The notes below the pieces were generated by a model, which worked only from the letters and a program-made list of their open reading frames with translations, made no database searches and had not been told where the DNA came from. Both the position numbers and the translations under genes were made by a program. A DNA stretch of 64,000 nucleotides from Bacteroidales bacterium (GTDB lineage Bacteria > Bacteroidota > Bacteroidia > Bacteroidales > UBA1402): contig JAJFTH010000006.1 of NCBI GenBank assembly GCA_021373135.1, positions 388,119 to 452,118 on the forward strand. The letters are read 5' to 3'. Each line of letters begins with the position of its first letter. Positions within the stretch are counted from its first letter, which is position 1. This document shows positions 1-12,444 of the stretch, piece by piece.

Positions 1-1169
1 TTACGGAATATACAGATACAGTAAAACACTTGGAAGGCTTTTTTAAAGCAAAATATAATGGCAAAGTTCTCATTTGTGATGGTGGTATGACAGCAACTCT
101 TCATCATAAATTGAACGCTAATTTCAACGCTCAATTTAAAGGTGAACGAGATAATGATTACGACATACTGATTACAAGTGATAAGCTCTCAGAAGGCTTT
201 AATTTAAATCGTGCGGGTGTTATAATCAATTATGATATTCCGTGGAATCCAACAAGGGTAATTCAGCGTGTCGGGCGTATCAATCGTATTGGTTCAAAAG
301 TGTTCGATGAATTGTTTATTTACAACTTTTTTCCAAGTGAAGCTGGTTCAGGTGTAGTCCAGATTCGGGAAATTGCTATGCAGAAAATGTTTCTGATTCA
401 TAATGCTCTGGGTGAAGATTCCAAGATTTTTGACCCCAATGAAGAACCTACACCTGCTATGCTATTTAACAAGGTCAATGAAAATCCAGATATTGATGGA
501 GAGCAAAGCGTAGGAACACAGATAAGAAACAAGTATTTTGAGATTGAACAAACTCATCCAGAGATAATCAAGAAAATAGCTGATTTACCTACAAGGGTTA
601 AGTCAGGGAAACCATTTAGTCAAAATCAGGTTTGTGTTTTAAGGAGAAAAGGGTTGAGTTTATTTACTCATTTAATTTCAGATACGAATGCTGATAAACT
701 TGAAGTGAGCGAAATTACATTTGAGGAATTTTTGGACTTAGTTGAATGTGAATTTGATACACCCCAACTCATGCTTTCTTCAAAATTCTGGAAAGCATAT
801 AATGAAGTAAAAGATTTTAAAACAACAAGTAAGAAGGCCTTACCAGCAAAATCATTAGAAGCCAAAGCATTTGAAAATCTAAAATGTTCTTTAAAACTAT
901 TGAATCATACAGACGATAATCTTATTAATTTTATCAAGGTTCTTATTACTGATATTGATAAATACAAAACACTTTCAGATAGAACCCTAGGTCGTTTAGC
1001 CAGAAATCCATTGAACATTAAATCCCCCGAATCAGAAATAAAAACTTTTAAAGACGAAGTGCTTTGGATTAAAAACAGTTTGGGTGCCGATTACTTAGAT
1101 CGTATACTAAAACGAATTGAACATCAGAAAAATGAGGTGGTGATAGCTGTAGAGAATATGATAATATAG
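1..1169 (+). CDS. SNF2/superfamily-2 helicase-related protein, C-terminal part (5' end outside window)
   Basis: The frame is open from nt 3, with no stop before the listed TTG at 30. Helicase C-terminal motifs IV-VI are present: DILITSDKLSEGFNLNRAGVIINYDIPWNPTRVIQRVGRINRIGS (QRxGRxxR arginine finger). About 280 aa of unassigned C-terminal extension follows. Confidence 0.8.
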   Translation, partial: TEYTDTVKHLEGFFKAKYNGKVLICDGGMTATLHHKLNANFNAQFKGERDNDYDILITSDKLSEGFNLNRAGVIINYDIPWNPTRVIQRVGRINRIGSKVFDELFIYNFFPSEAGSGVVQIREIAMQKMFLIHNALGEDSKIFDPNEEPTPAMLFNKVNENPDIDGEQSVGTQIRNKYFEIEQTHPEIIKKIADLPTRVKSGKPFSQNQVCVLRRKGLSLFTHLISDTNADKLEVSEITFEEFLDLVECEFDTPQLMLSSKFWKAYNEVKDFKTTSKKALPAKSLEAKAFENLKCSLKLLNHTDDNLINFIKVLITDIDKYKTLSDRTLGRLARNPLNIKSPESEIKTFKDEVLWIKNSLGADYLDRILKRIEHQKNEVVIAVENMII

Positions 1170-1237
1170 AATGGAGATAAAATAGGGCTATCCCGATTTT
1201 GTGTAAAGGTTAGAGCAAGTCTTATGACTATTGTTAC

Positions 1238-1264
1238 AAAAAAAACGCAGCTTTACAACTGCGT
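1238..1264 (-). terminator. Rho-independent terminator closing the two-RT operon
   Basis: The minus strand reads ACGCAG-TTGTAAAG-CTGCGT followed by T8, about 100 nt downstream of the stop of the 730-aa RT gene. Confidence 0.7.
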
Positions 1265-1362
1265 TAAAATAATCTCGCTCAAGATTTTTTTTAAGGATTC
1301 TGCAAGCAGAATAAGAATAAACTTGTGTGTGAAGTCATTTCGAGCGGGTTTATTCTATATCT
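1238..1362 (-). ncRNA. Candidate DRT3-associated structured ncRNA (3' tail of the RT operon)
   Basis: The minus-strand RNA between the RT stop (1363) and the terminator has three structures. (1) A perfect 9-bp stem AGAATAAAC/GTTTATTCT (1348-1356 with 1314-1322) enclosing a 25-nt loop CCGCUCGAAAUGACUUCACACACAA. (2) A hairpin ATTCTG-CTTG-CAGAAT (1297-1312). (3) An A8 tract, then GAGCG (complementary to CGCUC in the first loop), then the terminator hairpin. There is no ORF. The assignment as a functional ncRNA is inference. Confidence 0.4.
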
Positions 1363-3555
1363 TTATGAGTACACCTCTTGGCATATTTTTGCATTTAATT
1401 CTTTTTCTAAATTAATCTTATCCCATTTTGTAAACCAATATTTCTGGTTCTTCTGAAAACCTATAATATCAGTTTGAATTGCATCATTAGGGATACCGTA
1501 CAAAGATAGTAGATTTTTCTTGTATACGCTTGCTATGTAAGGACATGTCAACAAATCAAACAGCAAAATTGTAAGTTCTGAACTTCTCCTTCGCTTCGTT
1601 TTATCTGTATTTTCTATCTTTAATGTTGTGTATGAAAGTATAGCTTCTTTAATACGTTGATATTGGCTATCATTGCCAACATAATAAAGTACTACTAATA
1701 TAGAAAAACAGTTTAAGTGATTCTTAAACATATATTCACCTGTTGTATTGTCTTTTGCACAATTAAAATATTCACAAAGTACAGGTTCGGAAAGTTGATA
1801 TTCATTTCCAAGTTCTTTCAAAACAATCAATAGATACAACGTTTCTACTTGCACATGTTCAACACATTTATTCTTTTCTAAAATTAATCGAATTTCATCT
1901 TGAATCTTTTTCAAGACTAAATCACGATTAACACTTTGGAATCTCAAAGCCTTTGACTTCTTAAAATTATAAATTCCTTTATAATAGTTGATTATAGTCG
2001 TGAGTATTACCGTCAATTTAATAGTAGAATTTACTTTGGGGTAAACCGTATAAAGAAAGAAGACGAAATCTAAAATATTGAGAATAAACGTTGTTAGTCG
2101 TTTTTCTAAGTTGTATTTTTTTCGACATTCTTTTTCATCGAATTTCCCTTCTTTTTCCAACTCAGCGTATTGCTTATACTTCAAATCAAACTTCTTGAAA
2201 ATGTTCTCTATCTTTCTTGAGATAACGACCAATGTGTAATTTAGCACATCTTTGTATTCAACGTTTGTTTCTTTGAGAATAGTTTTGAATTTTGCTGATA
2301 GTTTATTAGGATTAAAGTAAATCGTAAATTTATCAGCAATTTTTTCGAATGGGGTATCATCTTCGCAACCTTCTTCTAATTCTTCATCTTCTTTTTCTGC
2401 TTCATCTATCCTAAATTTTATATTATCATCGAGTAGATCAACTATTTTTAGCTTCGCCATAGTTAACTCGGTAATAATAGGTTTGCTATATGATTTAGTC
2501 TTTGATTCGCTAATCCACATTTTAAACTCACGAAGTTCCAGTTTAAAAGATTTTAGAATTTCATCTTTTACATTATCACCATTATAAAATAAGAAATAGT
2601 CGTCAACGTAACGATAACACTCATAATCTCTTCTAAGTACAAGCCCCTGTCTAAAAAGATGATCCTCAACGTTCTTATCTACCTGCTGCAGTATTAGTTC
2701 TGCGAATATTCTTGAAAATTCGGGTCCAATCAAAATACCATTAGTTTCTCCATAGTTTATATTCTGCATGAACTCATCAAATTTTCCAGCAAAAGTATTT
2801 TCAGACAATGTGAGGTTATCTTTTATTATTTCTTTATTCAATAAGGCCCAGGGAAGAGAATGCGTATAGATACTATCGAAACATTTGGATATATCAAAAC
2901 GTATTAATTTGTCATATTTCTTTTCGGCTCTTTGGTAACGGTAGTCTTCATAAAAGCGGAAAATATTTGTATATTTCTTATAGGTAAAAAAAGTTTTTAA
3001 GTGCTCATATTCATTAATATTAACCTCTATGCTATCATCCTTTAATCCTGATTTTTGCTTGTGTAACTTGTCATTATAGAATATGTATTTTGCTACCTCT
3101 GATGGTCGTCTAATTGAAAAACTACTAATATTGCAATAATACAATATCAATTCTTTATACTTTTCATAAAATTCTATAATGTCAATTTGGTTTTTAGGAT
3201 GAATAACTGCTAATTCACGAAATTCTTTCTCTTTATGGGTAATCTTATAAACAAATGGTATTCTACGTTGATTCCTATTCAAATCAAAACTGTTATTTTG
3301 AATAGGTTCATTTGGTTTACATCCGAAAAGGAGCTTGATTATGTGAAGTAAAGTGTCTTTTTTCTTTTCTGTCAACCCTTTTTTATTAGAATTCCAATAA
3401 ATTTTATTATCTCGAATCTCTACCCCATAGGTAACTAAGAACCGATAAAAATAACGATTTGAAAAAATAATAGGAATTTCAAACGGCAGGACATCGGATA
3501 GAACAACTCTTTCCTTCTTGTATTTTAATCGTATTTTTCTTTTATATCGTTTCAT
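1363..3555 (-). CDS. drt3b: Reverse transcriptase, UG/Abi defence-associated class; the larger partner of a two-RT module (UG8/Drt3b-like)
   Basis: 730 aa. RT motif A is LIRFDISKCFDSIYTH, the motif B region is NGILIGPEFSRIFAELIL, and catalytic motif C is YRYVDDYFLFY. A helical C-terminal extension of about 330 aa follows. The start overlaps the stop of the upstream RT by 14 nt. The symbol is assigned from architecture (two adjacent dissimilar RTs) and relative size, not from a sequence search. Confidence 0.65.
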   Translation of the reverse strand: MKRYKRKIRLKYKKERVVLSDVLPFEIPIIFSNRYFYRFLVTYGVEIRDNKIYWNSNKKGLTEKKKDTLLHIIKLLFGCKPNEPIQNNSFDLNRNQRRIPFVYKITHKEKEFRELAVIHPKNQIDIIEFYEKYKELILYYCNISSFSIRRPSEVAKYIFYNDKLHKQKSGLKDDSIEVNINEYEHLKTFFTYKKYTNIFRFYEDYRYQRAEKKYDKLIRFDISKCFDSIYTHSLPWALLNKEIIKDNLTLSENTFAGKFDEFMQNINYGETNGILIGPEFSRIFAELILQQVDKNVEDHLFRQGLVLRRDYECYRYVDDYFLFYNGDNVKDEILKSFKLELREFKMWISESKTKSYSKPIITELTMAKLKIVDLLDDNIKFRIDEAEKEDEELEEGCEDDTPFEKIADKFTIYFNPNKLSAKFKTILKETNVEYKDVLNYTLVVISRKIENIFKKFDLKYKQYAELEKEGKFDEKECRKKYNLEKRLTTFILNILDFVFFLYTVYPKVNSTIKLTVILTTIINYYKGIYNFKKSKALRFQSVNRDLVLKKIQDEIRLILEKNKCVEHVQVETLYLLIVLKELGNEYQLSEPVLCEYFNCAKDNTTGEYMFKNHLNCFSILVVLYYVGNDSQYQRIKEAILSYTTLKIENTDKTKRRRSSELTILLFDLLTCPYIASVYKKNLLSLYGIPNDAIQTDIIGFQKNQKYWFTKWDKINLEKELNAKICQEVYS

Positions 3556-4996
3556 CTGTCCAAATTCTTTTTAAAATATTCATCTCTTTAATTTTGAATT
3601 TATGGAACCTCTTATCTTCAAAGCCTTTTTGAAATGAAAAACTTTGTTTAATTTGACTTTTTAGTTTTTCAATATTAATGGGTAATTCTGAATAAGGTAC
3701 TAAGTTACTATGTACCATTTTTGTTAAGAAATCATCTAAAGATTTCAAGTCTTTCAGACCATTTTTTTCTTTATCAAGCAAGCTGTTTGAGAAATAAACG
3801 CCAATCTTAACGCCTTTTTTACTATTTATTAGATTCGTATTACCTGTAAGCATTCTTAAACAATCAAATAATATTTTTCGTGCCTTACGTTCGTCATACT
3901 TACTTTCATTATTATATGTGTCAAATGATAATTTTATACGTGATTTATACTTGTCAATCTTGTTCTCTGATAAATTTACAGATAGCCGATAATCAATAAA
4001 ATCCTCTTTTGCTTTAATCCCCAATGTATTAAACCTATATCCAAGATAGTTTATACTACTATTAAAACCATCAACCTTGTTAAGCATATCTACTAATTGT
4101 GTCTTAGGATCTGTCACAGGTTTTAATTCCAACCTCGCACTTGTTATAATTTTATTGACTTCCTCAAAATAGTTTGTACTGCTACTTTTTGTGTTCGGTG
4201 TAATGATGATAAATATGTCGTCAACATAACGGGCATAAAAGGTAACATGTTCAAGAGATTTGATTTTACTATCAATATCACGCATATAAAGCTCTACAAG
4301 ATATGCGCTTATTCCGATGCCTCTTGGTACTCCTTTTTTTACTTCAAATTCTCTTAGGTTTTTTTTTGCCTCATATTCTTCAATAATTTCTGCAATGAAT
4401 TTCTTTGACTGATAATTCAGTAATGTATTTTGTTCTACCTTCTCCAAAAGTTCTACTTGAGGAATGCTCTCATAGAAACTTTTAATATCAGTCCTGATTA
4501 TGTATTTTGGGAAATTATCGCTTAACAATAGTTTGATCTGCTTTAGAATGCTGTACCTGTCTGCTTGTTTTACTTTAAAAGTTTTTCTGATATTGTATTG
4601 TAGTTGTTTAATGGCATAAAACACTTCCAAACTATCCCCCAATTGATATACGGGCTTCCCTTTACGTTCTTCAATGTTTATAGTAAATCTAAAACTATCA
4701 TTATTTACATTTGTACTAATTCTCTTAACCTGATCATACAGAATGTCATCCTTCTTTTTCTTGCACTCTTTTATTTTGCAATTATTTTCATCCTTAATTG
4801 ATTGATACTCTTCCTTTGTAATTATACCATCTTTTCGCTCTCTTGATTTCTCATTAATCTCAGCCTTTAAAGATTTAATGTCCTTTATCAAATCAATATA
4901 CTTTGCAGGGAACATCTCTTTTTTGAGATTTCCCTTACGGTTCTCAATTTGAAAAATGTTCCGAAAATTCTCAGCAGAAAACGATTGATCAAGCAT
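3542..4996 (-). CDS. drt3a: Reverse transcriptase, UG/Abi defence-associated class; the smaller partner of a two-RT module (UG3/Drt3a-like)
   Basis: 484 aa. RT motif A is IIRTDIKSFYESIP, motif B is GVPRGIGISAYLVELYM, catalytic motif C is YARYVDDIFII and the motif E region is INYLGYRF. It is the first gene of the pair. The symbol is assigned from architecture, not from a search. Confidence 0.65.
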   Translation of the reverse strand: MLDQSFSAENFRNIFQIENRKGNLKKEMFPAKYIDLIKDIKSLKAEINEKSRERKDGIITKEEYQSIKDENNCKIKECKKKKDDILYDQVKRISTNVNNDSFRFTINIEERKGKPVYQLGDSLEVFYAIKQLQYNIRKTFKVKQADRYSILKQIKLLLSDNFPKYIIRTDIKSFYESIPQVELLEKVEQNTLLNYQSKKFIAEIIEEYEAKKNLREFEVKKGVPRGIGISAYLVELYMRDIDSKIKSLEHVTFYARYVDDIFIIITPNTKSSSTNYFEEVNKIITSARLELKPVTDPKTQLVDMLNKVDGFNSSINYLGYRFNTLGIKAKEDFIDYRLSVNLSENKIDKYKSRIKLSFDTYNNESKYDERKARKILFDCLRMLTGNTNLINSKKGVKIGVYFSNSLLDKEKNGLKDLKSLDDFLTKMVHSNLVPYSELPINIEKLKSQIKQSFSFQKGFEDKRFHKFKIKEMNILKRIWTDETI

Positions 4997-5806
4997 TATA
5001 GTTATTAGTTTTTTCGTTTAAACAAACAACTCTCTTACATCAACTTTTAGAGTTTTAGCTATTGTAAGAAAGTCTTGAATGAAGGTTGTGATTCATTTGT
5101 ACACCAATGAGAAATTGTTGCTTAATTTTTAAGGTTATCAGCTAGTCATTTTCCTGTACACTTTGCTCAGCTTAATTGATTCAGCTCCGTTTGTCAATTT
5201 ATTGATGTGCTTTGCAAATGTATTGATTTGCTTTCTATTTATAATAAATTACTAACAATTATGTTTTCAAGATATTCGAAAATATTAATAGTCTATACAA
5301 AATTTATCGTAATATTTTCACGTTTTTATCTATAAAACATCTCCTATGAAAAGAATTAATAATGCAATACATTCTTGAAATTGACTTTTCTCGGAACATA
5401 AAGGATGAAATTAAAAAGTAATTAGTGCAACTTGATGTCTTGAGATATATAAATCACTATAATCATTTAGGTAATACTGCTTCAATGCAAAGTAAGTCAG
5501 GTGTCTCAAAGTGGCTTTTTTCCCATTATTTTGATACATTTTTATATTGACACTAAATACTGGCAAAGCCAAGGTTTTGAGTAAATGATTAACACTTGAT
5601 CGGATTTTTCCCATCATTGAAAATTTTTCCTACAATTCAAACACCGAACCGTATTACACGGGATCTCTGTCCAGGAATGATCTCCAGTGATTTTCTGTAA
5701 ACGACTATTCATAGTACTTACGTGAGTTTTGTTGAGATAAAAGACTTGTTTGCAACTCCATATCCTGGACGTGCAGCTTTTCCGTCCAGAAGTGACGATC
5801 CTTAAC

Positions 5807-5846
5807 CAAAGATAAGGGGGCCAAATACACCGTACTCAGCCCCCCC
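5807..5846 (-). terminator. Probable terminator of the primase-helicase gene
   Basis: The minus strand just after the stop at 5872 reads GGGGGGGC-(17-nt loop)-GGCCCCC followed by TTATCTTTGG. The G:C stem pairs 5816-5820 with the C-run at 5840-5846. The U-tract is imperfect. Confidence 0.4.
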
Positions 5847-5871
5847 AACTATAAGTAATTTATTAGCCCCT

Positions 5872-8073
5872 TCAAAAATCTTCATCTTCGAGATGAGCTT
5901 TTCGAAAACTTTTATCATTGAGATCCCAAGATACTGCATCTGATGGTAGGTGCTTGATTATCTCAGAATTCGAGCCTATACAATAACAGGTTGATTTCTT
6001 CTTCCCGATTCGTACTCTATCAATTTTCAATTCAACCATCAGATTTCCAATTGATTTTGAATTGATCATCTTAGATAGTCTCCCGTATTTCTCGTTAAGA
6101 GTCTGAAGTAGATCTAAGCTGGTGATATTGAAAACGTCCTTTCCGTTCCTTGGTGCTTCGATATATTCATCAAAGATCAGATCCAAATCGGATACCTGAC
6201 GGTAATCTACAAACAACTCCTTTAGCATTTTATCGTCTGTATATTCATAAGAGTATTTGAAACCATTCTTGTACAGTCGATATGCTTCCATGAATAGTTC
6301 ATCAAGCTTTAACATGTCCAGGCTATTATAGTGGATTTTGCCTACCTCAATTGGTAGGATTCTTCGGTTCTGCTTTTCTTTTACTACGAAAAGGTTGTTC
6401 CCAGACCCAGCAAAGGATGCTCTCCTTTTAATATTGCTGATTCTTCTATCATATTTACGTCTTGTCGTTAGCTCCTTTGTGGATAATAGATTTTTGAATG
6501 ACTTCTCTGCTTCATAGGTTCTACCATCCATCTCGTCATCAATGATTAACAAGCCTTGCCCCATGATCACCTTGAAATCATCGTCAAACGTTAGTTCATG
6601 CTCCATTATGTACTGATGAAGGTCTACAGGTAGCACAAATTTTCTAAGCAATGTTGACTTCCCTATCCCCTGCTGGTTACTAAGGATTGAAAGGAAAAAC
6701 TCATTTGGATATTCACCGTCAAGAGCCTGAGCTATCATTCCAACGTACCACTTCCTAAAAAAATGAACCACTGTCGCTTTATTGACGCTATCGTTCTTCA
6801 GATCCATACAGTTGACCCATTGTTCGAAATTACCCTCCGAAACGCAGTTTTCATGCTTTTCGATGAAATCCAGTATGGGATTGAATTGTGTAATATAAGT
6901 TGACTTGATAACTTCCTCAAAACTCGATCTTGGAATAATCTTGCCGTAGTGCTTTTTCAGGTCTATGGATAATGTATTGTATTCCAGTTCTGTTATTATT
7001 TTGCCATTCAATGTAAGATCTTGAAGAAAGGTGTCATATCGAACCCCTCTTCCATTTAGGTATTCAGCAATTTGATCTTCCGATACTCTATCAGCCTTTC
7101 CCTGTCCTGTAGAAGATGTATTCTCCAATGGAAATCCGAGCTCTTCCAATTTTGTTAGGTACTTACGTTTGTCTTCTTCTTTTTCCAATACCTGTAGCAC
7201 CTGATAATGATTGTATGGCTTTGAAGGTTCAAAGTCGGTGGAAGAGCTGAAGCATATGAATGTTTTTGTGTCTTTATAGTAATAACCTGAGTGGGTACCA
7301 GTAGAATTCGGACGATTGAGATATACCTTTTCATCATCTTCTTTGGCAATTTCCCAGCCATTTTTCTCAAACAGCTCCAAAATATTGAATTCATCGTTGA
7401 ACCTGTTTATGGCGCTTTCCTTGTAACTACCAAAGGTCTTATTGTTTACTTTTCGGTTTAAAGACCTAGCTACAGTCAGCAGTTGGTCACGTTCTGATTC
7501 CGTAATGACGGGAATCTCGTAAACCAACTTTTCCATATCAAAGGTTCCATTTTTTACCAGATAGTGAGACTTCTGGTGGCAAAAGTAACCTCCCTCACCA
7601 CGGGTTTCGATGATTACTTCACCATCCGTGTTGTGTGCCAGCTTTTGATTCCCGTCAACTCCATCAGAACATCTATATATTAGGTGAAAACCTCCATTGA
7701 CAGTTGTCTGACAAACAAGTCTGCAAATCAAGTTTTCTGGTAAAAGCTTGACAAATTCATCAAATATTGTTTTCTCAGGATCATTTTTCAGATCAAAGTC
7801 CAGAACTTCAAGGTTTCCAGATACTTTTCCACAAATGATACCAATATACCCGCCACTGAGATAGTGATCATGCCATAATTCGATAGGGCTCTCTTCCTCT
7901 CTATACTGAACCCACTTGTCATAGGGCTTTTTCTCTGTACTTGTTTTAATGATGGATAGACCAAATTTTTGTTCTTGGCTTACTGGGTACTGATTGCCAG
8001 TTGCCTCCATTGTCTTTACTGCTACTTCCTCATTTTCCATTTTCGTTAAGGTTAATACTCGTGTTATTTTCAT
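5872..8073 (-). CDS. Bifunctional prim-pol domain / P-loop (VirE/D5-like) helicase replication protein of a mobile element
   Basis: 733 aa. The N-terminal prim-pol-like region is GGYIGIICGKVSGNLEVLDFDLK ... GGFHLIYRC ... ETRGEGGYF. The C-terminal NTPase has Walker A (SNQQGIGKSTLLRKF) and Walker B (GLLIIDDEMDG). The true start may be the ATG at 8040 (MENEEV) or 8010. Confidence 0.75.
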   Translation of the reverse strand: MKITRVLTLTKMENEEVAVKTMEATGNQYPVSQEQKFGLSIIKTSTEKKPYDKWVQYREEESPIELWHDHYLSGGYIGIICGKVSGNLEVLDFDLKNDPEKTIFDEFVKLLPENLICRLVCQTTVNGGFHLIYRCSDGVDGNQKLAHNTDGEVIIETRGEGGYFCHQKSHYLVKNGTFDMEKLVYEIPVITESERDQLLTVARSLNRKVNNKTFGSYKESAINRFNDEFNILELFEKNGWEIAKEDDEKVYLNRPNSTGTHSGYYYKDTKTFICFSSSTDFEPSKPYNHYQVLQVLEKEEDKRKYLTKLEELGFPLENTSSTGQGKADRVSEDQIAEYLNGRGVRYDTFLQDLTLNGKIITELEYNTLSIDLKKHYGKIIPRSSFEEVIKSTYITQFNPILDFIEKHENCVSEGNFEQWVNCMDLKNDSVNKATVVHFFRKWYVGMIAQALDGEYPNEFFLSILSNQQGIGKSTLLRKFVLPVDLHQYIMEHELTFDDDFKVIMGQGLLIIDDEMDGRTYEAEKSFKNLLSTKELTTRRKYDRRISNIKRRASFAGSGNNLFVVKEKQNRRILPIEVGKIHYNSLDMLKLDELFMEAYRLYKNGFKYSYEYTDDKMLKELFVDYRQVSDLDLIFDEYIEAPRNGKDVFNITSLDLLQTLNEKYGRLSKMINSKSIGNLMVELKIDRVRIGKKKSTCYCIGSNSEIIKHLPSDAVSWDLNDKSFRKAHLEDEDF

Positions 8074-8209
8074 TTGTCATCAAGGTCACGTAAAGCAACT
8101 GCTTGATAAATGCAGCCTTAGGTAAATAGCTTTCCTTGGCTTTCTTCCCAATTTTCTCCATTAGATCAGAGTCTAAATAAAGATTGATCCTTTTTTGATT
8201 CGTTTTCAT
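8030..8209 (-). CDS. Ribbon-helix-helix (CopG/Arc-like) small DNA-binding protein, 59 codons, not in the supplied ORF track
   Basis: My hand translation from the ATG at 8209 gives MKTNQKRINLYLDSDLMEKIGKKAKESYLPKAAFIKQLLYVTLMTNENNTSINLNENGK with a stop at 8030-8032. KRINLYLDSDL (beta strand) plus two short helices is the RHH pattern. The 3' end overlaps the primase start region, with ATG 8040 embedded in ...GAAAATGGAAAATGA. Confidence 0.55.
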   Translation of the reverse strand: MKTNQKRINLYLDSDLMEKIGKKAKESYLPKAAFIKQLLYVTLMTNENNTSINLNENGK

Positions 8210-8410
8210 TCTACTTTAATTTTATTTATTATTTATGTTCCCACATCTCTGTGGACTTCGACTATATATATTGTATTATAGTCTAGATTTTTATGTTTTA
8301 AACACTTAATGGAAATTTATTGTGCCATTCTAGCAATAAATATTACGATAAATGTTTTTTTATCTCAATTCGTGATATTTTTTTTCAATCAACCATCGTT
8401 TTTTTTCGAA

Positions 8411-8550
8411 TGGACAGGATGGACACGATATTTTTCACTTTTAAATGATTTTTTCTGTACTTGTACTTCAAAGGGCAGGTACCCGTATTCGGGAGTACAG
8501 TGTATATTTAAAGTTTTCAGAATGTATGAATTATCGTGTCCTTAGTGTCC
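8411..8550. repeat. Nested inverted-repeat element with iterated GGACA(C) boxes (candidate ori/oriT or protein-binding site)
   Basis: TGGACAggaTGGACACGATA (8411-8430) faces TATCGTGTCCttaGTGTCC (8532-8550); the outer arms GGACACGATA/TATCGTGTCC are a perfect 10-bp match. Inside are CTGTACT (8455-8461)/AGTACAG (8494-8500) and CCCG-TATT-CGGG (8482-8493). TGTACTT occurs twice in tandem. Confidence 0.4.
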
Positions 8551-9250
8551 GCATGTCTTTGGTGCTGCTGGGAACAAAAAAAATGACTATAATTTAGGAA
8601 GGGGCAAATTCTTCATCCTTGGTTATTTTTCAACCAAGTATTGATTCTTATACAGATCCCATTTTTAATTATACTGGCGTTATTGATCGCCAATTCTTTT
8701 GTACCATAGTTCTACACTTCCTTCCGTTTAAGTTGAAAGCAGCGTTGCCCTGGGTGATCTATATGACCGCCTATGGTTTCATCTTTATAGATTGATGCTG
8801 ATAAAGACCCAATGGTAAAAATAGCTATTGGTAACGGGTCTTAGTAGTGATTTTCATCACCTTTTTCGCAAATGTACTGTTCTGGATCGAAAAAAACAGT
8901 TTTTGAGTGTTAAATATTAGTTAATATTAAAAAGTAATTTAATTTAAATTCATATGGTTGATTAACAGGTATTTGAGCTTGAAATAAACTAGGCGTCTTT
9001 CTAAAAAAGTTGGAAAAAAATTTTGGAAATTTTAGACGTATAGCCGTCTATCCATATATAGGCAACATTTACCCCAGGGGATGGGTATAGGATTCCTTCC
9101 CCCTGGTACGGGAGGAAGCCCTTTTTAATGAGAAGCTTCTATAGAAAAGCAATAGTTAGGTTAACTTAAAGACTTGTTCTGTCTCAAATTTCTAGTGGAA
9201 ATGAACGGAATTTCATGATTATTTTCCTGAAAAAGTTTGAGAAAAGTTTG

Positions 9251-11653: not shown

Positions 11654-11690
11654 AAAAAAAGCGGTCAACCCATGATTTTGAGCTGACCGC
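11654..11690 (-). terminator. Rho-independent terminator of the FKBP PPIase gene
   Basis: The minus strand reads GCGGTCA-(16 nt)-TGACCGC followed by T7, about 20 nt after the stop at 11713. Confidence 0.65.
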
Positions 11691-11712
11691 CTTAAAATTT
11701 CTTTGTGGAATT

Positions 11713-12444
11713 TTATTGTTGCATTGTTGCTGCAGCTTCTTTTGCATCAAGAATTTTCAACAATTCAACTTCGAATACAAGAAGTTCACCCGGTTTGATT
11801 TTACCACCGGCACCATTGTCACCGTAAGCCAAATCAGAAGGAATCCAGAATTTATATTTTGCACCGACACTCATCAGTTGAATGCCTTCTGTCCATCCTT
11901 TGATAACACGGTTCAATGGAAATTGTGCAGGAGTACCGCGCTCGATAGAGCTGTCAAAAACAGTACCATCCAGCAATGTACCATGATAGTTTACACTGAC
12001 AACGGAAGAATCAGCAGGTTTTGGACCTGTTCCTTCTTTGATTGCTTGGTATTGCAAGCCTGAAGCAGTGGTTTTTACACCTTCTTTTTTACCGTTCTTT
12101 TCGAGGAATTTTTTAACTTCTGCTTTTGTTTTGACAGCAGCTTCTGCCTGAGCGGTAGCCATACAACGTTGGAAAACCGAATATGCCTTTGCTGGAGTAA
12201 TTGCTAATTTTGAAGTGTCATTTTTCAAAGCTTTTTCAAAGACGGCAAGGAAGAGGTCTACATTGATTTTAGCGGGAAATTGATCCAGGTTCTGAGCAAG
12301 GCTTGAACCCATTCCGACACCGTATGCATAGCTTAAGCTATCAACTGCGGTTTTCATTTTGCTACCAGAGGTCTTGCTGCAAGAAGCAAAACTCATGCCG
12401 ATAACCAGCATGGCAACAGTAAAAAGAATACTAATTTTTTTCAT
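11713..12444 (-). CDS. FKBP-type peptidyl-prolyl cis-trans isomerase lipoprotein (FklB/Mip-like)
   Basis: The FKBP domain is VSVNYHGTLLDGTVFDSSIERGTPAQFPLNRVIKGWTEGIQLM...IPSDLAYGDNG. The lipoprotein signal is MKKISILFTVAMLVIGMSFASC. Start chosen at ATG 12444. Confidence 0.85.
   Translation of the reverse strand: MKKISILFTVAMLVIGMSFASCSKTSGSKMKTAVDSLSYAYGVGMGSSLAQNLDQFPAKINVDLFLAVFEKALKNDTSKLAITPAKAYSVFQRCMATAQAEAAVKTKAEVKKFLEKNGKKEGVKTTASGLQYQAIKEGTGPKPADSSVVSVNYHGTLLDGTVFDSSIERGTPAQFPLNRVIKGWTEGIQLMSVGAKYKFWIPSDLAYGDNGAGGKIKPGELLVFEVELLKILDAKEAAATMQQ

What the first reader, a model, noticed from the sequence alone, without database searches (positions are those of the whole stretch)
1238..1362. 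Structured 3' tail with a hairpin displaying a CACACACA loop: candidate ncRNA/template of the two-RT system
Seen: on the RT strand, the 125 nt between the stop of the 730-aa RT and the T8 terminator contain no ORF but fold convincingly. A perfect 9-bp stem AGAAUAAAC/GUUUAUUCU (1348-1356 with 1314-1322) presents a 25-nt loop CCGCUCGAAAUGACUUCACACACAA. A second hairpin AUUCUG-CUUG-CAGAAU (1297-1312) follows, then A8, then GAGCG, which can pair with CGCUC in the first loop (a possible pseudoknot), then the terminator hairpin (1238-1264). The (CA)n run at 1324-1331 is the only such dinucleotide run in the island's non-coding DNA. Established: DRT3 activity requires a ncRNA encoded in the locus. 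My recollection, which I cannot verify here, is that recent biochemical work reported DRT3 making alternating GT/AC dinucleotide-repeat DNA from a short AC-repeat template in the ncRNA. If that is right, this exposed CACACACA loop is the obvious template candidate. Inference only: the boundaries and the function.
Basis: partly seen in the sequence, partly recalled or inferred. Interest (0 to 1): 0.7.

Follow-up and report, generated by a model that had tools for sequence, protein, structure and literature searches.

The report
DRT3 defence ncRNA with ACACAC template
The structured tail after the second reverse-transcriptase gene is this locus's copy of the non-coding RNA of the DRT3 anti-phage system, whose exposed ACACAC stretch is copied into poly(GT) DNA; it is a compact, pseudoknotted version of an RNA already described in E. 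coli, so it is a sound call but not a new kind of thing.

Summary
The two upstream genes are Drt3a and Drt3b.

All 80 Drt3b loci fetched from other genomes carry an ACACAC run within 24-131 nt after the drt3b stop, on the same strand. The background chance is about 2% per 150 nt. ACACAC is the only invariant block in a 66-sequence alignment.

Compensatory changes support four helices:
- its second hairpin (P2)
- its proposed CGCUCG/UGAGCG pseudoknot
- a 5-bp hairpin it missed (P3, AAUCU/AGAUU), which presents UGAGCG in its loop

A covariance model built without the window's clade finds 1239-1358(-) as the best hit in the 64-kb window (E 2.6e-4).

Published work (Wang et al. 2026, PMC13174585; Mestre et al. 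2022, PMC9226505) shows that the DRT3 ncRNA lies downstream of drt3b, carries a conserved exposed CACACA/ACACAC motif, and templates poly(dTdG) synthesis by Drt3a in E. coli.

This RNA is smaller than the 161-nt E. coli RNA and folds differently. My model does not detect the E. coli RNA, and that RNA's terminator loop (GAAA) cannot form the equivalent loop-loop pseudoknot. Neither DRT3 paper text I could search mentions a pseudoknot.

Verdict: new member of a known kind, modest interest.

The parts
3542..4996 (-). drt3a (UG3, class 2 reverse transcriptase, 484 aa). It is the enzyme expected to copy the ncRNA template.
   Evidence: PADLOC Drt3a E 9e-109. Pfam RVT_1. 30% identical to EcoDRT3a, with the YVDD motif (RYVDDIFII) aligned.
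1363..3555 (-). drt3b (UG8, class 1 reverse transcriptase with alpha-repeat domain, 730 aa). It is the expected protein-primed, protein-templated poly(dCdA) synthase.
   Evidence: PADLOC Drt3b E 4e-195. 40% identical to EcoDRT3b over the RT domain. By my position count on that alignment, E26, R113, R282 and YVDD 316-319 correspond to Eco E22, R71, R241 and YVDD. The penultimate Y729 matches Eco Y666 by position only, because the Eco sequence available was truncated. All these residues are invariant in the 21-sequence alignment A1. Their roles are taken from PMC13174585.
1238..1360 (-). Whole non-coding tail: the DRT3 ncRNA core plus an intrinsic terminator. The exact 5' and 3' RNA ends are not known.
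   Evidence: Model R1 hit at 1239-1358(-), 31.2 bits, E 2.6e-4, the top hit in the window. No Rfam family matches. Cassette homology with related loci ends at 1235-1240.
1348..1356 (-). P1 5' arm, AGAAUAAAC
   Evidence: Pairs with 1314-1322. In A4, 5 of 9 pairs change on both sides and 86.5% of cells are paired. Relatives have AAAUAAGC/GCUUAUUU and AGUCCCGU/ACGGGUCU. A P1 closing the template loop is found across the family.
1341..1346 (-). Pseudoknot 5' strand, CGCUCG, inside the P1 loop
   Evidence: Pairs with UGAGCG at 1276-1281. In A4, 98.8% of cells are paired and 3 of 6 pairs change on both sides. In A2, 5 of 6 pairs change on both sides. Examples: CCGUCU/GGACGG, CCAGA/UCUGG, AAUCCUC/GAGGAUU, CAAAUCAC/GUGAUUUG.
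1324..1331 (-). CACACACA, the putative template for poly(dTdG). The invariant core ACACAC is at 1325-1330.
   Evidence: Present in 80 of 80 related loci at 24-131 nt after the stop, against a background of about 0.02 per 150 nt. ACACAC forms the only invariant columns of A2. The template function is shown for E. coli in PMC13174585.
1314..1322 (-). P1 3' arm, GUUUAUUCU. It starts 1 nt after the CA run.
   Evidence: Same evidence as the P1 5' arm.
1297..1312 (-). P2 hairpin, AUUCUG-CUUG-CAGAAU
   Evidence: 5 of 6 pairs change on both sides in A4. Relatives have GAUCCUU/AAGGAUU and CCUUCAU/AUGAAGG. All 11 pairs of the family-wide P2 helix change on both sides in A2.
1271..1286 (-). P3 hairpin, AAUCU-UGAGCG-AGAUU. 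The loop (1276-1281) is the pseudoknot 3' strand.
   Evidence: 5 of 5 pairs change on both sides and 97.1% of cells are paired in A4. It is homologous to the long P3 hairpin of other clades (GACACC/GGUGUC, AGCACC/GGUGCU), which there doubles as the terminator.
1238..1265 (-). Intrinsic terminator: a 9-bp hairpin at 1244-1265 followed by a T-run ending at 1238
   Evidence: Terminator scan. The stem and loop differ freely among relatives whose Drt3b is 87-92% identical, while the core is unchanged. It is therefore a generic terminator and not part of the conserved fold.

Best explanation
The segment from about 1360 to 1238 on the minus strand encodes the non-coding RNA of a DRT3 (Drt3a + Drt3b + ncRNA) anti-phage system.

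The fold, as supported by comparison:
- P1 is a 9-bp closing helix.
- The P1 loop holds, from 5' to 3', a pseudoknot strand (CGCUCG), a 9-nt linker and the CACACACA run. The run ends 1 nt before the 3' strand of P1.
- A short hairpin P2 and an A-rich linker follow.
- A 5-bp hairpin P3 comes next. Its loop, UGAGCG, pairs back to CGCUCG.
- A separate intrinsic terminator ends the transcript.

The mechanism, inferred by homology with E. coli DRT3:
- Drt3a binds this RNA and copies the ACACAC stretch repeatedly, realigning after each pass, to make poly(dTdG).
- Drt3b, primed from its penultimate tyrosine and gated by E26 and R282, makes poly(dCdA) without a nucleic-acid template.
- The two strands anneal into a GT/AC duplex.
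- In E. coli, accumulation of this duplex is reported to be restrained by RecBCD and to trigger abortive infection when phage Gam inhibits RecBCD.

What is shown here: the gene identities, the position and invariance of the template motif, and the four covarying helices.

What is inferred: that the RNA is expressed, where its ends lie, that it is used as a template, what the product is, and that P1 and the pseudoknot position or bound the template.
For: - Gene identities: PADLOC hits for Drt3a (9e-109) and Drt3b (4e-195).
- Catalytic, gating and priming residues are conserved.
- ACACAC occurs downstream of drt3b, on the same strand, in 80 of 80 loci drawn from Bacteroidota, Alphaproteobacteria, Cloacimonadota, Omnitrophota and other groups, against about 2% expected.
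- ACACAC is the only invariant block in the 66-sequence alignment A2.
- Structure counts on A2: 72% of cells paired against 49% or less when partners are slid, 0 of 500 shuffles reach the observed value, and 32 of 33 pairs change on both sides.
- Structure counts on A4, the window-type alignment: 92% paired against 45% or less when slid, and 18 of 26 pairs change on both sides.
- Model R1, built without the window clade, hits 1239-1358(-) with E 2.6e-4 as the top hit in the window.
- R1 also hits just downstream of drt3b in nearly all of the 80 genome loci (no hit in L077 and L079, a partial one in L040; most were seeds) and in 21 of 22 further loci.
- Cassette homology with other genomes ends exactly at the terminator T-run.
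- Experiments on the E. coli homologue are in PMC13174585.
- The conserved exposed CACACA motif was described in PMC9226505.
Against: - There is no expression or product data for this locus or for any Bacteroidota DRT3.
- Model R1 does not detect the E. coli ncRNA. The best overlapping hit scores 7 bits, E 2.4. Homology of the two RNAs therefore rests on position, the closing helix with an adjacent template, and the motif. It does not rest on an alignable fold.
- The window clade lacks the hairpin that abuts the 5' side of the template in many relatives. That hairpin may be the counterpart of SL4 in E. coli, so template-boundary control may differ.
- The single-sequence minimum-energy fold prefers a different arrangement.
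- CACACACA occurring once in 64 kb is within chance.
Confidence: 0.88

Rival explanations
1. The RNA is a genuine DRT3 ncRNA, but the CA run is a protein recognition or attachment site and not a copied template. This was the original speculation of Mestre et al. 2022.
For: PMC9226505 proposed this reading. Nothing in the sequence alone separates binding from templating. The motif is invariant, as a binding site would also be.
Against: In E. coli the product is exactly the complement, poly(dTdG). It depends on the ncRNA and on the motif, and it is made by purified DRT3a plus ncRNA with only dGTP and dTTP (PMC13174585). The run length varies from 6 to 10 nt but always in AC register. That fits a repeat template better than a fixed binding site.
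Confidence: 0.05
2. The segment is only the 3' untranslated region and terminator of the drt3ab operon. The stems and the CA run are there by chance or only for mRNA stability.
For: A canonical intrinsic terminator is present. One CACACACA per 64 kb is expected by chance. AT-rich DNA forms hairpins easily.
Against: The motif is conserved in 80 of 80 loci against about 2% expected. Compensatory changes occur in four helices, including a long-range loop-loop pairing. Among close relatives the terminator is the variable part while the core is constant. That is the opposite of what a plain terminator region would show.
Confidence: 0.03
3. The region encodes a small protein: the 63-aa ORF at 1224-1415 on the plus strand.
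For: The ORF is listed mechanically.
Against: Insertions and deletions of 1-2 nt among close relatives break the frame (A4). More distant relatives conserve the base pairing and not the sequence. The ORF runs antisense into the end of drt3b.
Confidence: 0.01
4. It is a cis-regulatory RNA, such as an attenuator or riboswitch, that controls a downstream gene.
For: It is a structured RNA that ends in a terminator.
Against: The next gene (30-1169) is on the opposite strand and convergent. The DRT3 cassette, with its RNA, sits in different flanks in other genomes. No Rfam family matches.
Confidence: 0.01

Closest known systems
EcoDRT3 ncRNA (E. coli ECOR12, 161 nt; Wang et al. 2026, PMC13174585; also Deng et al. 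2026 as cited in PMC13213688 and PMC13314766)
   Same: - It is encoded immediately downstream of drt3b on the same strand.
- A closing helix encloses a loop in which 5'-ACACAC-3' lies a few nucleotides 5' of the helix's 3' strand. In E. coli this is GUUAAAGGGU/GCCUUUUAGC with ACACAC-UAUU before it. Here it is AGAAUAAAC/GUUUAUUCU with CACACACA-A before it.
- It ends in an intrinsic terminator.
- The partner proteins are homologous and keep all key residues.
   Different: - The core here is about 85-95 nt, against 161 nt in E. coli.
- In the predicted fold, the E. coli RNA fills the P1 loop with several stem-loops, including the SL4 that Wang et al. place next to the template. This RNA has only a pseudoknot strand and a 9-nt linker there.
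- This RNA has P2 and P3 after P1, and a loop-loop pseudoknot. The E. coli terminator loop is GAAA and cannot form the equivalent pairing.
- Model R1 does not detect the E. coli RNA.
- The published model recovered only 32-41 RNAs close to E. coli.
UG8-downstream ncRNA groups 1-17 with the 'CACACA'-like motif (Mestre et al. 2022, PMC9226505)
   Same: The definition fits: a structured RNA downstream of UG8 (Drt3b) with a globally conserved, exposed CACACA motif at a variable distance from the RT stop, and little sequence similarity between groups elsewhere. The window fits this description fully.
   Different: That work gave group-wise structure predictions and read the motif as a binding site. 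I could not read its supplementary figures. I therefore cannot say whether a Bacteroidota group with this fold, or the pseudoknot, was drawn there.
DRT10 and DRT9 ncRNAs, and telomerase RNA (repeat-addition templates)
   Same: This is a functional analogy. A short template inside a structured RNA is copied over and over by a dedicated RT to make tandem-repeat DNA (PMC12632851 abstract; PMC13174585). Telomerase RNA also combines a template with a nearby pseudoknot; that point is from my own knowledge.
   Different: The RT clades differ (UG17, UG28, TERT). According to Mestre et al. 2022, the DRT9 (UG28) ncRNA lies upstream of its RT. The repeat units differ. No sequence or model similarity was tested or is claimed.
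Retron msr-msd RNA
   Same: An RT-associated non-coding RNA in a defence locus that is reverse-transcribed.
   Different: Retron RNA lies upstream of its RT and yields a branched msDNA of defined sequence. Here the RTs score as Drt3a and Drt3b. The only retron-RT match is weak and belongs to Drt3a (4.9e-05).

Membership tests
DRT3 defence system (UG3 + UG8 + ncRNA) | A Drt3a (UG3, class 2) RT gene | tested here: met
   ORF 3542-4996(-): PADLOC Drt3a 9e-109. 30% identical to EcoDRT3a with YVDD.
DRT3 defence system (UG3 + UG8 + ncRNA) | A Drt3b (UG8, class 1, alpha-repeat) RT gene directly downstream of drt3a | tested here: met
   ORF 1363-3555(-) overlaps the end of drt3a by 14 nt. PADLOC Drt3b 4e-195.
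DRT3 defence system (UG3 + UG8 + ncRNA) | Drt3b residues for protein priming and alternating dA/dC selection (Eco E22, R71, R241, YVDD, Y666) | tested here: met
   The window has E26, R113, R282 and Y316-V-D-D319 at the aligned positions, by my count on the alignment. Y729 is the penultimate residue, as Y666 is in the E. coli protein; this one is matched by position only. All are invariant in A1. Their roles are from PMC13174585.
DRT3 defence system (UG3 + UG8 + ncRNA) | Protection against phage that requires both RT active sites and the ncRNA | not testable with these tools
   Needs plaque assays.
DRT3 ncRNA (as described for E. coli and UG8 groups 1-17) | Encoded in the non-coding stretch just downstream of drt3b, on the same strand | tested here: met
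   P1 starts 6 nt after the stop codon. The same holds in 80 of 80 related loci.
DRT3 ncRNA (as described for E. coli and UG8 groups 1-17) | A conserved 5'-ACACAC-3' exposed in a loop | tested here: met
   CACACACA at 1331-1324 lies in the P1 loop. ACACAC forms the only invariant columns of A2. Present in 80 of 80 loci.
DRT3 ncRNA (as described for E. coli and UG8 groups 1-17) | A match to the published DRT3 ncRNA covariance model, or a curated Rfam family | not testable with these tools
   The published model is not available here. The Rfam 15 E-value scan of 1-9000 found no DRT3-related family and nothing significant (best E 0.21, all far below gathering scores).
DRT3 ncRNA (as described for E. 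coli and UG8 groups 1-17) | The same secondary structure as the E. coli RNA | tested here: inconclusive
   The closing helix with the template next to its 3' strand is shared. The internal stem-loops are not. R1 does not score the E. coli RNA.
DRT3 ncRNA (as described for E. coli and UG8 groups 1-17) | A stable RNA that is bound by the RTs and copied into poly(dTdG) | not testable with these tools
   Needs RIP-seq, cDNA sequencing and in vitro reverse transcription.
Compact pseudoknotted DRT3 ncRNA (the family delimited here by model R1) | A significant hit to a covariance model built from other clades | tested here: met
   R1 was built from 66 sequences that exclude the window, L001, L002 and L003. 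It hits 1239-1358(-) with 31.2 bits, E 2.6e-4, the top hit in the window.
Compact pseudoknotted DRT3 ncRNA (the family delimited here by model R1) | P1, P2, P3 and the loop-loop pseudoknot supported by compensatory changes | tested here: met
   A4: 92.1% paired, 18 of 26 pairs change on both sides, slid controls 45% or less. A2. Loop-swap test.
Retron msr-msd | A retron-type RT with the ncRNA upstream of it | tested here: not met
   The RTs score as Drt3a and Drt3b. The only retron-RT match is weak and belongs to Drt3a (4.9e-05). The RNA lies downstream of the RTs.

The most novel reading that the evidence does not exclude
Most DRT3 systems outside the E. coli group may use a structurally distinct, minimal ncRNA class. 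These systems are found in Bacteroidota and in many other phyla. In this class a loop-loop pseudoknot ties the template-bearing P1 loop to the loop of the 3' hairpin, which is usually the terminator itself. The searchable text of the DRT3 papers I could read (Mestre 2022 main text; Wang 2026 main text and supplements) does not mention a pseudoknot, and this class is not alignable with the E. coli RNA. If so, the pseudoknot would take over the template-positioning and template-boundary role that stem-loops play in E. coli. The core of about 85 nt would be the smallest known scaffold for RT-driven repeat synthesis.
Probability: 0.45. Interest if true: 0.45.

Novelty: new member of a known kind. 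Interest (0 to 1): 0.3.

Why it matters
- For annotation: the stretch 1238-1360(-) should be labelled as the DRT3 ncRNA, and 1325-1330 as its template. Rfam has no family for it, so it goes unannotated at present.
- For the field: the comparison shows that the ACACAC template is universal across more than 100 DRT3 loci from many phyla. It also shows that most of them use a compact P1-P2-P3-pseudoknot fold and not the E. coli architecture.
- That gives a ready covariance model and concrete mutants for testing how Drt3a positions and bounds its template. It also offers a smaller RNA scaffold for structural or engineering work.
- It does not change the known picture of what DRT3 does.

Tried and rejected
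- **Rfam E-value scan of 1-9000.** Only sub-threshold chance matches appeared, such as tsr26 and L20_leader on the terminator.
- **RNAalifold on the MAFFT alignment A2.** It recovered only P3, because the other helices are shifted in a sequence-only alignment. I derived the helices from per-sequence constrained folds and column votes instead.
- **Single-sequence minimum-energy fold.** It nests the pseudoknot pairing and drops P1. I rejected it as the native fold because P1 covaries.
- **R1 against the E. coli locus.** No hit on the ncRNA, so I do not claim the two RNAs are alignable.
- **Metagenome scan with the single protein.** It returned only 19 loci. Most were either very close relatives or partial or distant ones of little use for window-type covariation. 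The informative intermediates came from the look-up of encoding contigs.
- **Loop-swap test for the pseudoknot.** The first version chose P3 partly by pseudoknot score and so was biased. I repeated it choosing P3 by stem strength alone. The signal was weaker but still present: own loop 12.6 against 8.7 for foreign loops.
- **Supplementary figures of Mestre et al. 2022.** They are not held, so earlier drawings of this fold could not be checked.
- **Promoter for the ncRNA.** The sigma-70 scan is not informative, with 30 sites found against 24.5 expected. Bacteroidota promoters are not covered by it. The 5' end is left open.
- **Plus-strand ORF 1224-1415.** Rejected as coding because indels among relatives break the frame.

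Full report
**Observation.** On the minus strand the drt3b stop codon is at 1363-1365. It is followed by:
- AGAAUAAAC (1356-1348)
- a 25-nt loop, CCGCUCGAAAUGACUUCACACACAA (1347-1323), with CACACACA at 1331-1324
- GUUUAUUCU (1322-1314)
- the hairpin AUUCUG-CUUG-CAGAAU (1312-1297)
- an A8 run (1292-1285)
- UGAGCG (1281-1276)
- a terminator hairpin (1265-1244) with a T-run ending at 1238

Every coordinate in the finding is right. The segment folds better than shuffles, with z = -3.0. CACACACA is unique in the 64-kb window, but one copy is what chance gives: 1.6 are expected. The run is therefore meaningful only through its position and conservation.

**What the genes are.** ORF 3542-4996(-) is Drt3a (PADLOC 9e-109). 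ORF 1363-3555(-) is Drt3b (4e-195). Both contain RVT_1. Against the E. coli proteins studied experimentally, Drt3b is 40% identical over the RT domain. By my position count on that alignment it keeps E26, R113, R282 and YVDD. Its penultimate tyrosine, Y729, matches by position. These correspond to Eco E22, R71, R241, YVDD and Y666, the gating, stacking, switching, catalytic and priming residues. All are invariant among 21 diverse homologues. Drt3a is 30% identical to EcoDRT3a and has YVDD.

**What is known.**
- Mestre et al. 2022 (PMC9226505) predicted structured RNAs downstream of UG8 (Drt3b). They noted a globally conserved, exposed 'CACACA'-like motif at a variable distance from the stop.
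- Wang et al. 2026 (PMC13174585) mapped the E. coli ncRNA just downstream of drt3b. They found a conserved 5'-ACACAC-3' in a loop and showed that mutating it abolishes defence and poly(dTdG).
- They also showed that purified DRT3a needs the RNA to make poly(dTdG), and that DRT3b makes poly(dCdA) by protein priming and protein templating.
- The two strands form dsDNA. RecBCD restrains it, and the phage protein Gam triggers the response.
- Reviews cite Deng et al. 2026 for a 6:6:6 Drt3a:Drt3b:ncRNA complex.

**Comparative test.** Drt3b has thousands of homologues.
- I fetched 80 loci from one-genome-per-species contigs, at 41-92% protein identity. They come from Bacteroidota, Alphaproteobacteria, Cloacimonadota, Chlorobiota, Omnitrophota and other groups.
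- All 80 have an (AC)3 or longer run 24-131 nt after the drt3b stop on the coding strand, median 41 nt. Elsewhere in these loci the rate is 0.018 runs per 150 nt.
- The commonest form is CACACACA, as in the window (46 of 80).
- In a MAFFT alignment of 66 non-redundant tails that excludes the window's clade, the only invariant columns are ACACAC.

**Structure.** Anchoring on the motif shows a common plan:
- P1 closes a loop that holds a pseudoknot 5' strand, an optional hairpin, and the template 1-3 nt before the 3' strand of P1.
- P2 follows.
- P3 comes last. Its loop is complementary to the pseudoknot strand.
- In most clades P3 plus a U-tract is the terminator.

On the sequence-only alignment A2 the four helices are 72% paired, against 49% or less when partners are slid. 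No shuffle of 500 reaches this, and 32 of 33 pairs show changes on both sides.

For the window's own architecture I added intermediate relatives (55-71% protein identity) through the look-up of encoding contigs, and closer ones from metagenomes.
- In the 14-sequence alignment A4 the window's P1, pseudoknot, P2 and P3 are 92% paired, against 45% or less when slid. Eighteen of 26 pairs change on both sides.
- Examples for P1: AGAAUAAAC/GUUUAUUCU becomes AAAUAAGC/GCUUAUUU or AGUCCCGU/ACGGGUCU.
- Examples for the pseudoknot: CGCUCG/UGAGCG becomes CGUACAAA/UUUGUACG or CCACUCGA/UUGAGUGG.
- Examples for P2: AUUCUG/CAGAAU becomes GAUCCUU/AAGGAUU.
- Examples for P3: AAUCU/AGAUU becomes GACACC/GGUGUC.

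A caveat applies to A4. The structure was read from the window sequence, which favours it over the slid controls. The double-sided changes do not depend on that.

A loop-swap test with P3 chosen blind to the pseudoknot still favours each locus's own loop, 12.6 against 8.7.

Among relatives with 87-92% identical Drt3b the core is nearly unchanged, while the terminator hairpin differs completely. The terminator is therefore generic.

**Model test.**
- A covariance model (R1; P1, P2 and P3 only) was built from the 66 tails without the window clade.
- It finds 1239-1358(-) as the best hit in the window: 31.2 bits, E 2.6e-4. The next hit has E 0.22.
- It finds a hit just after drt3b in nearly all of the 80 loci, most of which were seeds. 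The non-seed loci are included, L077 and L079 have no hit, and L040 has only a partial one.
- It also hits in 21 of 22 further, unseen loci.
- The model places the window's terminator in the P3 position, because it cannot see the pseudoknot. The A4 analysis corrects this.

**Relation to the E. coli RNA.** The 161-nt EcoDRT3 ncRNA also has a closing helix with ACACAC four nucleotides before its 3' strand, and a terminator.
- Its loop is filled with several stem-loops.
- Its terminator loop is GAAA.
- It has no P2 or P3 and cannot form this loop-loop pseudoknot.
- R1 does not score it.
- The published model was seeded on close relatives of E. coli and recovered 32-41 RNAs.

The window RNA is therefore the same functional element in a different, more compact fold.

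**Cassette.** DNA homology with other genomes runs from 1235-1240, the end of the T-run, to 5114-5229. The promoter region, drt3a, drt3b, the ncRNA and the terminator thus travel as one unit of about 4 kb.

**Mechanism and confidence.** I conclude with about 0.88 confidence that this is the DRT3 ncRNA and that ACACAC (1325-1330) is the Drt3a template for poly(dTdG). P1 and the pseudoknot would hold the template in place.
- Shown here: gene identity, motif invariance and helix covariation.
- Inferred from the E. coli work: expression, RNA ends, templating and product.
- The window clade has no hairpin abutting the template, so how the 5' template boundary is set here is open.

**Novelty.** The RNA class, its motif and its function are published. 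This is a new, unannotated member. The pseudoknotted compact fold may be undescribed, because neither DRT3 paper text I could search mentions a pseudoknot. I could not see the 2022 supplementary figures, however. Interest is 0.3.

Noticed in passing
window 1235-5229: DNA homology with DRT3 loci from other genomes starts at the end of the terminator T-run (1235-1240) and stops 120-230 bp upstream of the drt3a start codon. DRT3 therefore behaves as a discrete cassette of about 4 kb inserted in unrelated flanks.
   Followed up: partly
window 4997-5871: An 875-bp gap upstream of drt3a has no convincing ORF. One frame ends ...FIQDFLTIAKTLKVDVRELFV* at 5018. It looks like the C-terminal remnant of an XRE-type helix-turn-helix gene and is broken by stops. 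Its 3' part, up to about 5229, is conserved with the cassette.
   Followed up: no
window 5813-5847 (-): A long G+C-rich hairpin of 16 pairs lies just after the VapE-like/DUF5906 gene at 5872-8073(-). It is probably that gene's terminator.
   Followed up: no
window 30-1169 (+): The convergent neighbour is the C-terminal part of an SNF2-type helicase (Pfam Helicase_C), with PADLOC hits to DrmD, BrxH and similar models. The DRT3 cassette therefore sits next to other defence-like genes. The ORF starts near the window edge and may be longer.
   Followed up: no
window 11657-11774 (-): A weak second hit of the ncRNA model (16.5 bits, E 0.22). The alignment is carried by a terminator-like hairpin and has no CA template. 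It is probably chance.
   Followed up: no
L004-L007, L005, L040, L078 (downstream of drt3b): In a Flavobacterium clade and a few other loci the CA template lies 117-130 nt after the stop, behind extra 5' hairpins. These are larger variants of the same RNA.
   Followed up: partly
L022 5796-5901; L109 3685-3782: In this clade the pseudoknot strands (CUGAAC against the loop GAACAG) are not properly complementary. The sister loci L087 and L088 have CUGUUC/GAGCAG. This may be an exception or a shifted pairing.
   Followed up: no
L077, L079 (Capnocytophaga, Hoylesella), L107: These loci keep the CA run after drt3b but are not hit by model R1. L107 has a long insertion between P2 and P3. L077 and L079 seem to have a different 3' domain.
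   Followed up: no
L110 (E. coli 13P460A) 1-8161: The E. coli DRT3 cassette lies between a tyrosine integrase gene and genes annotated as ogr/Delta-like zinc finger, phage polarity suppression protein and Icd-like. That suggests a P4-like satellite context. The ncRNA is unannotated in 4 of the 5 records listed; in the fifth the drt3b annotation overlaps it.
   Followed up: no
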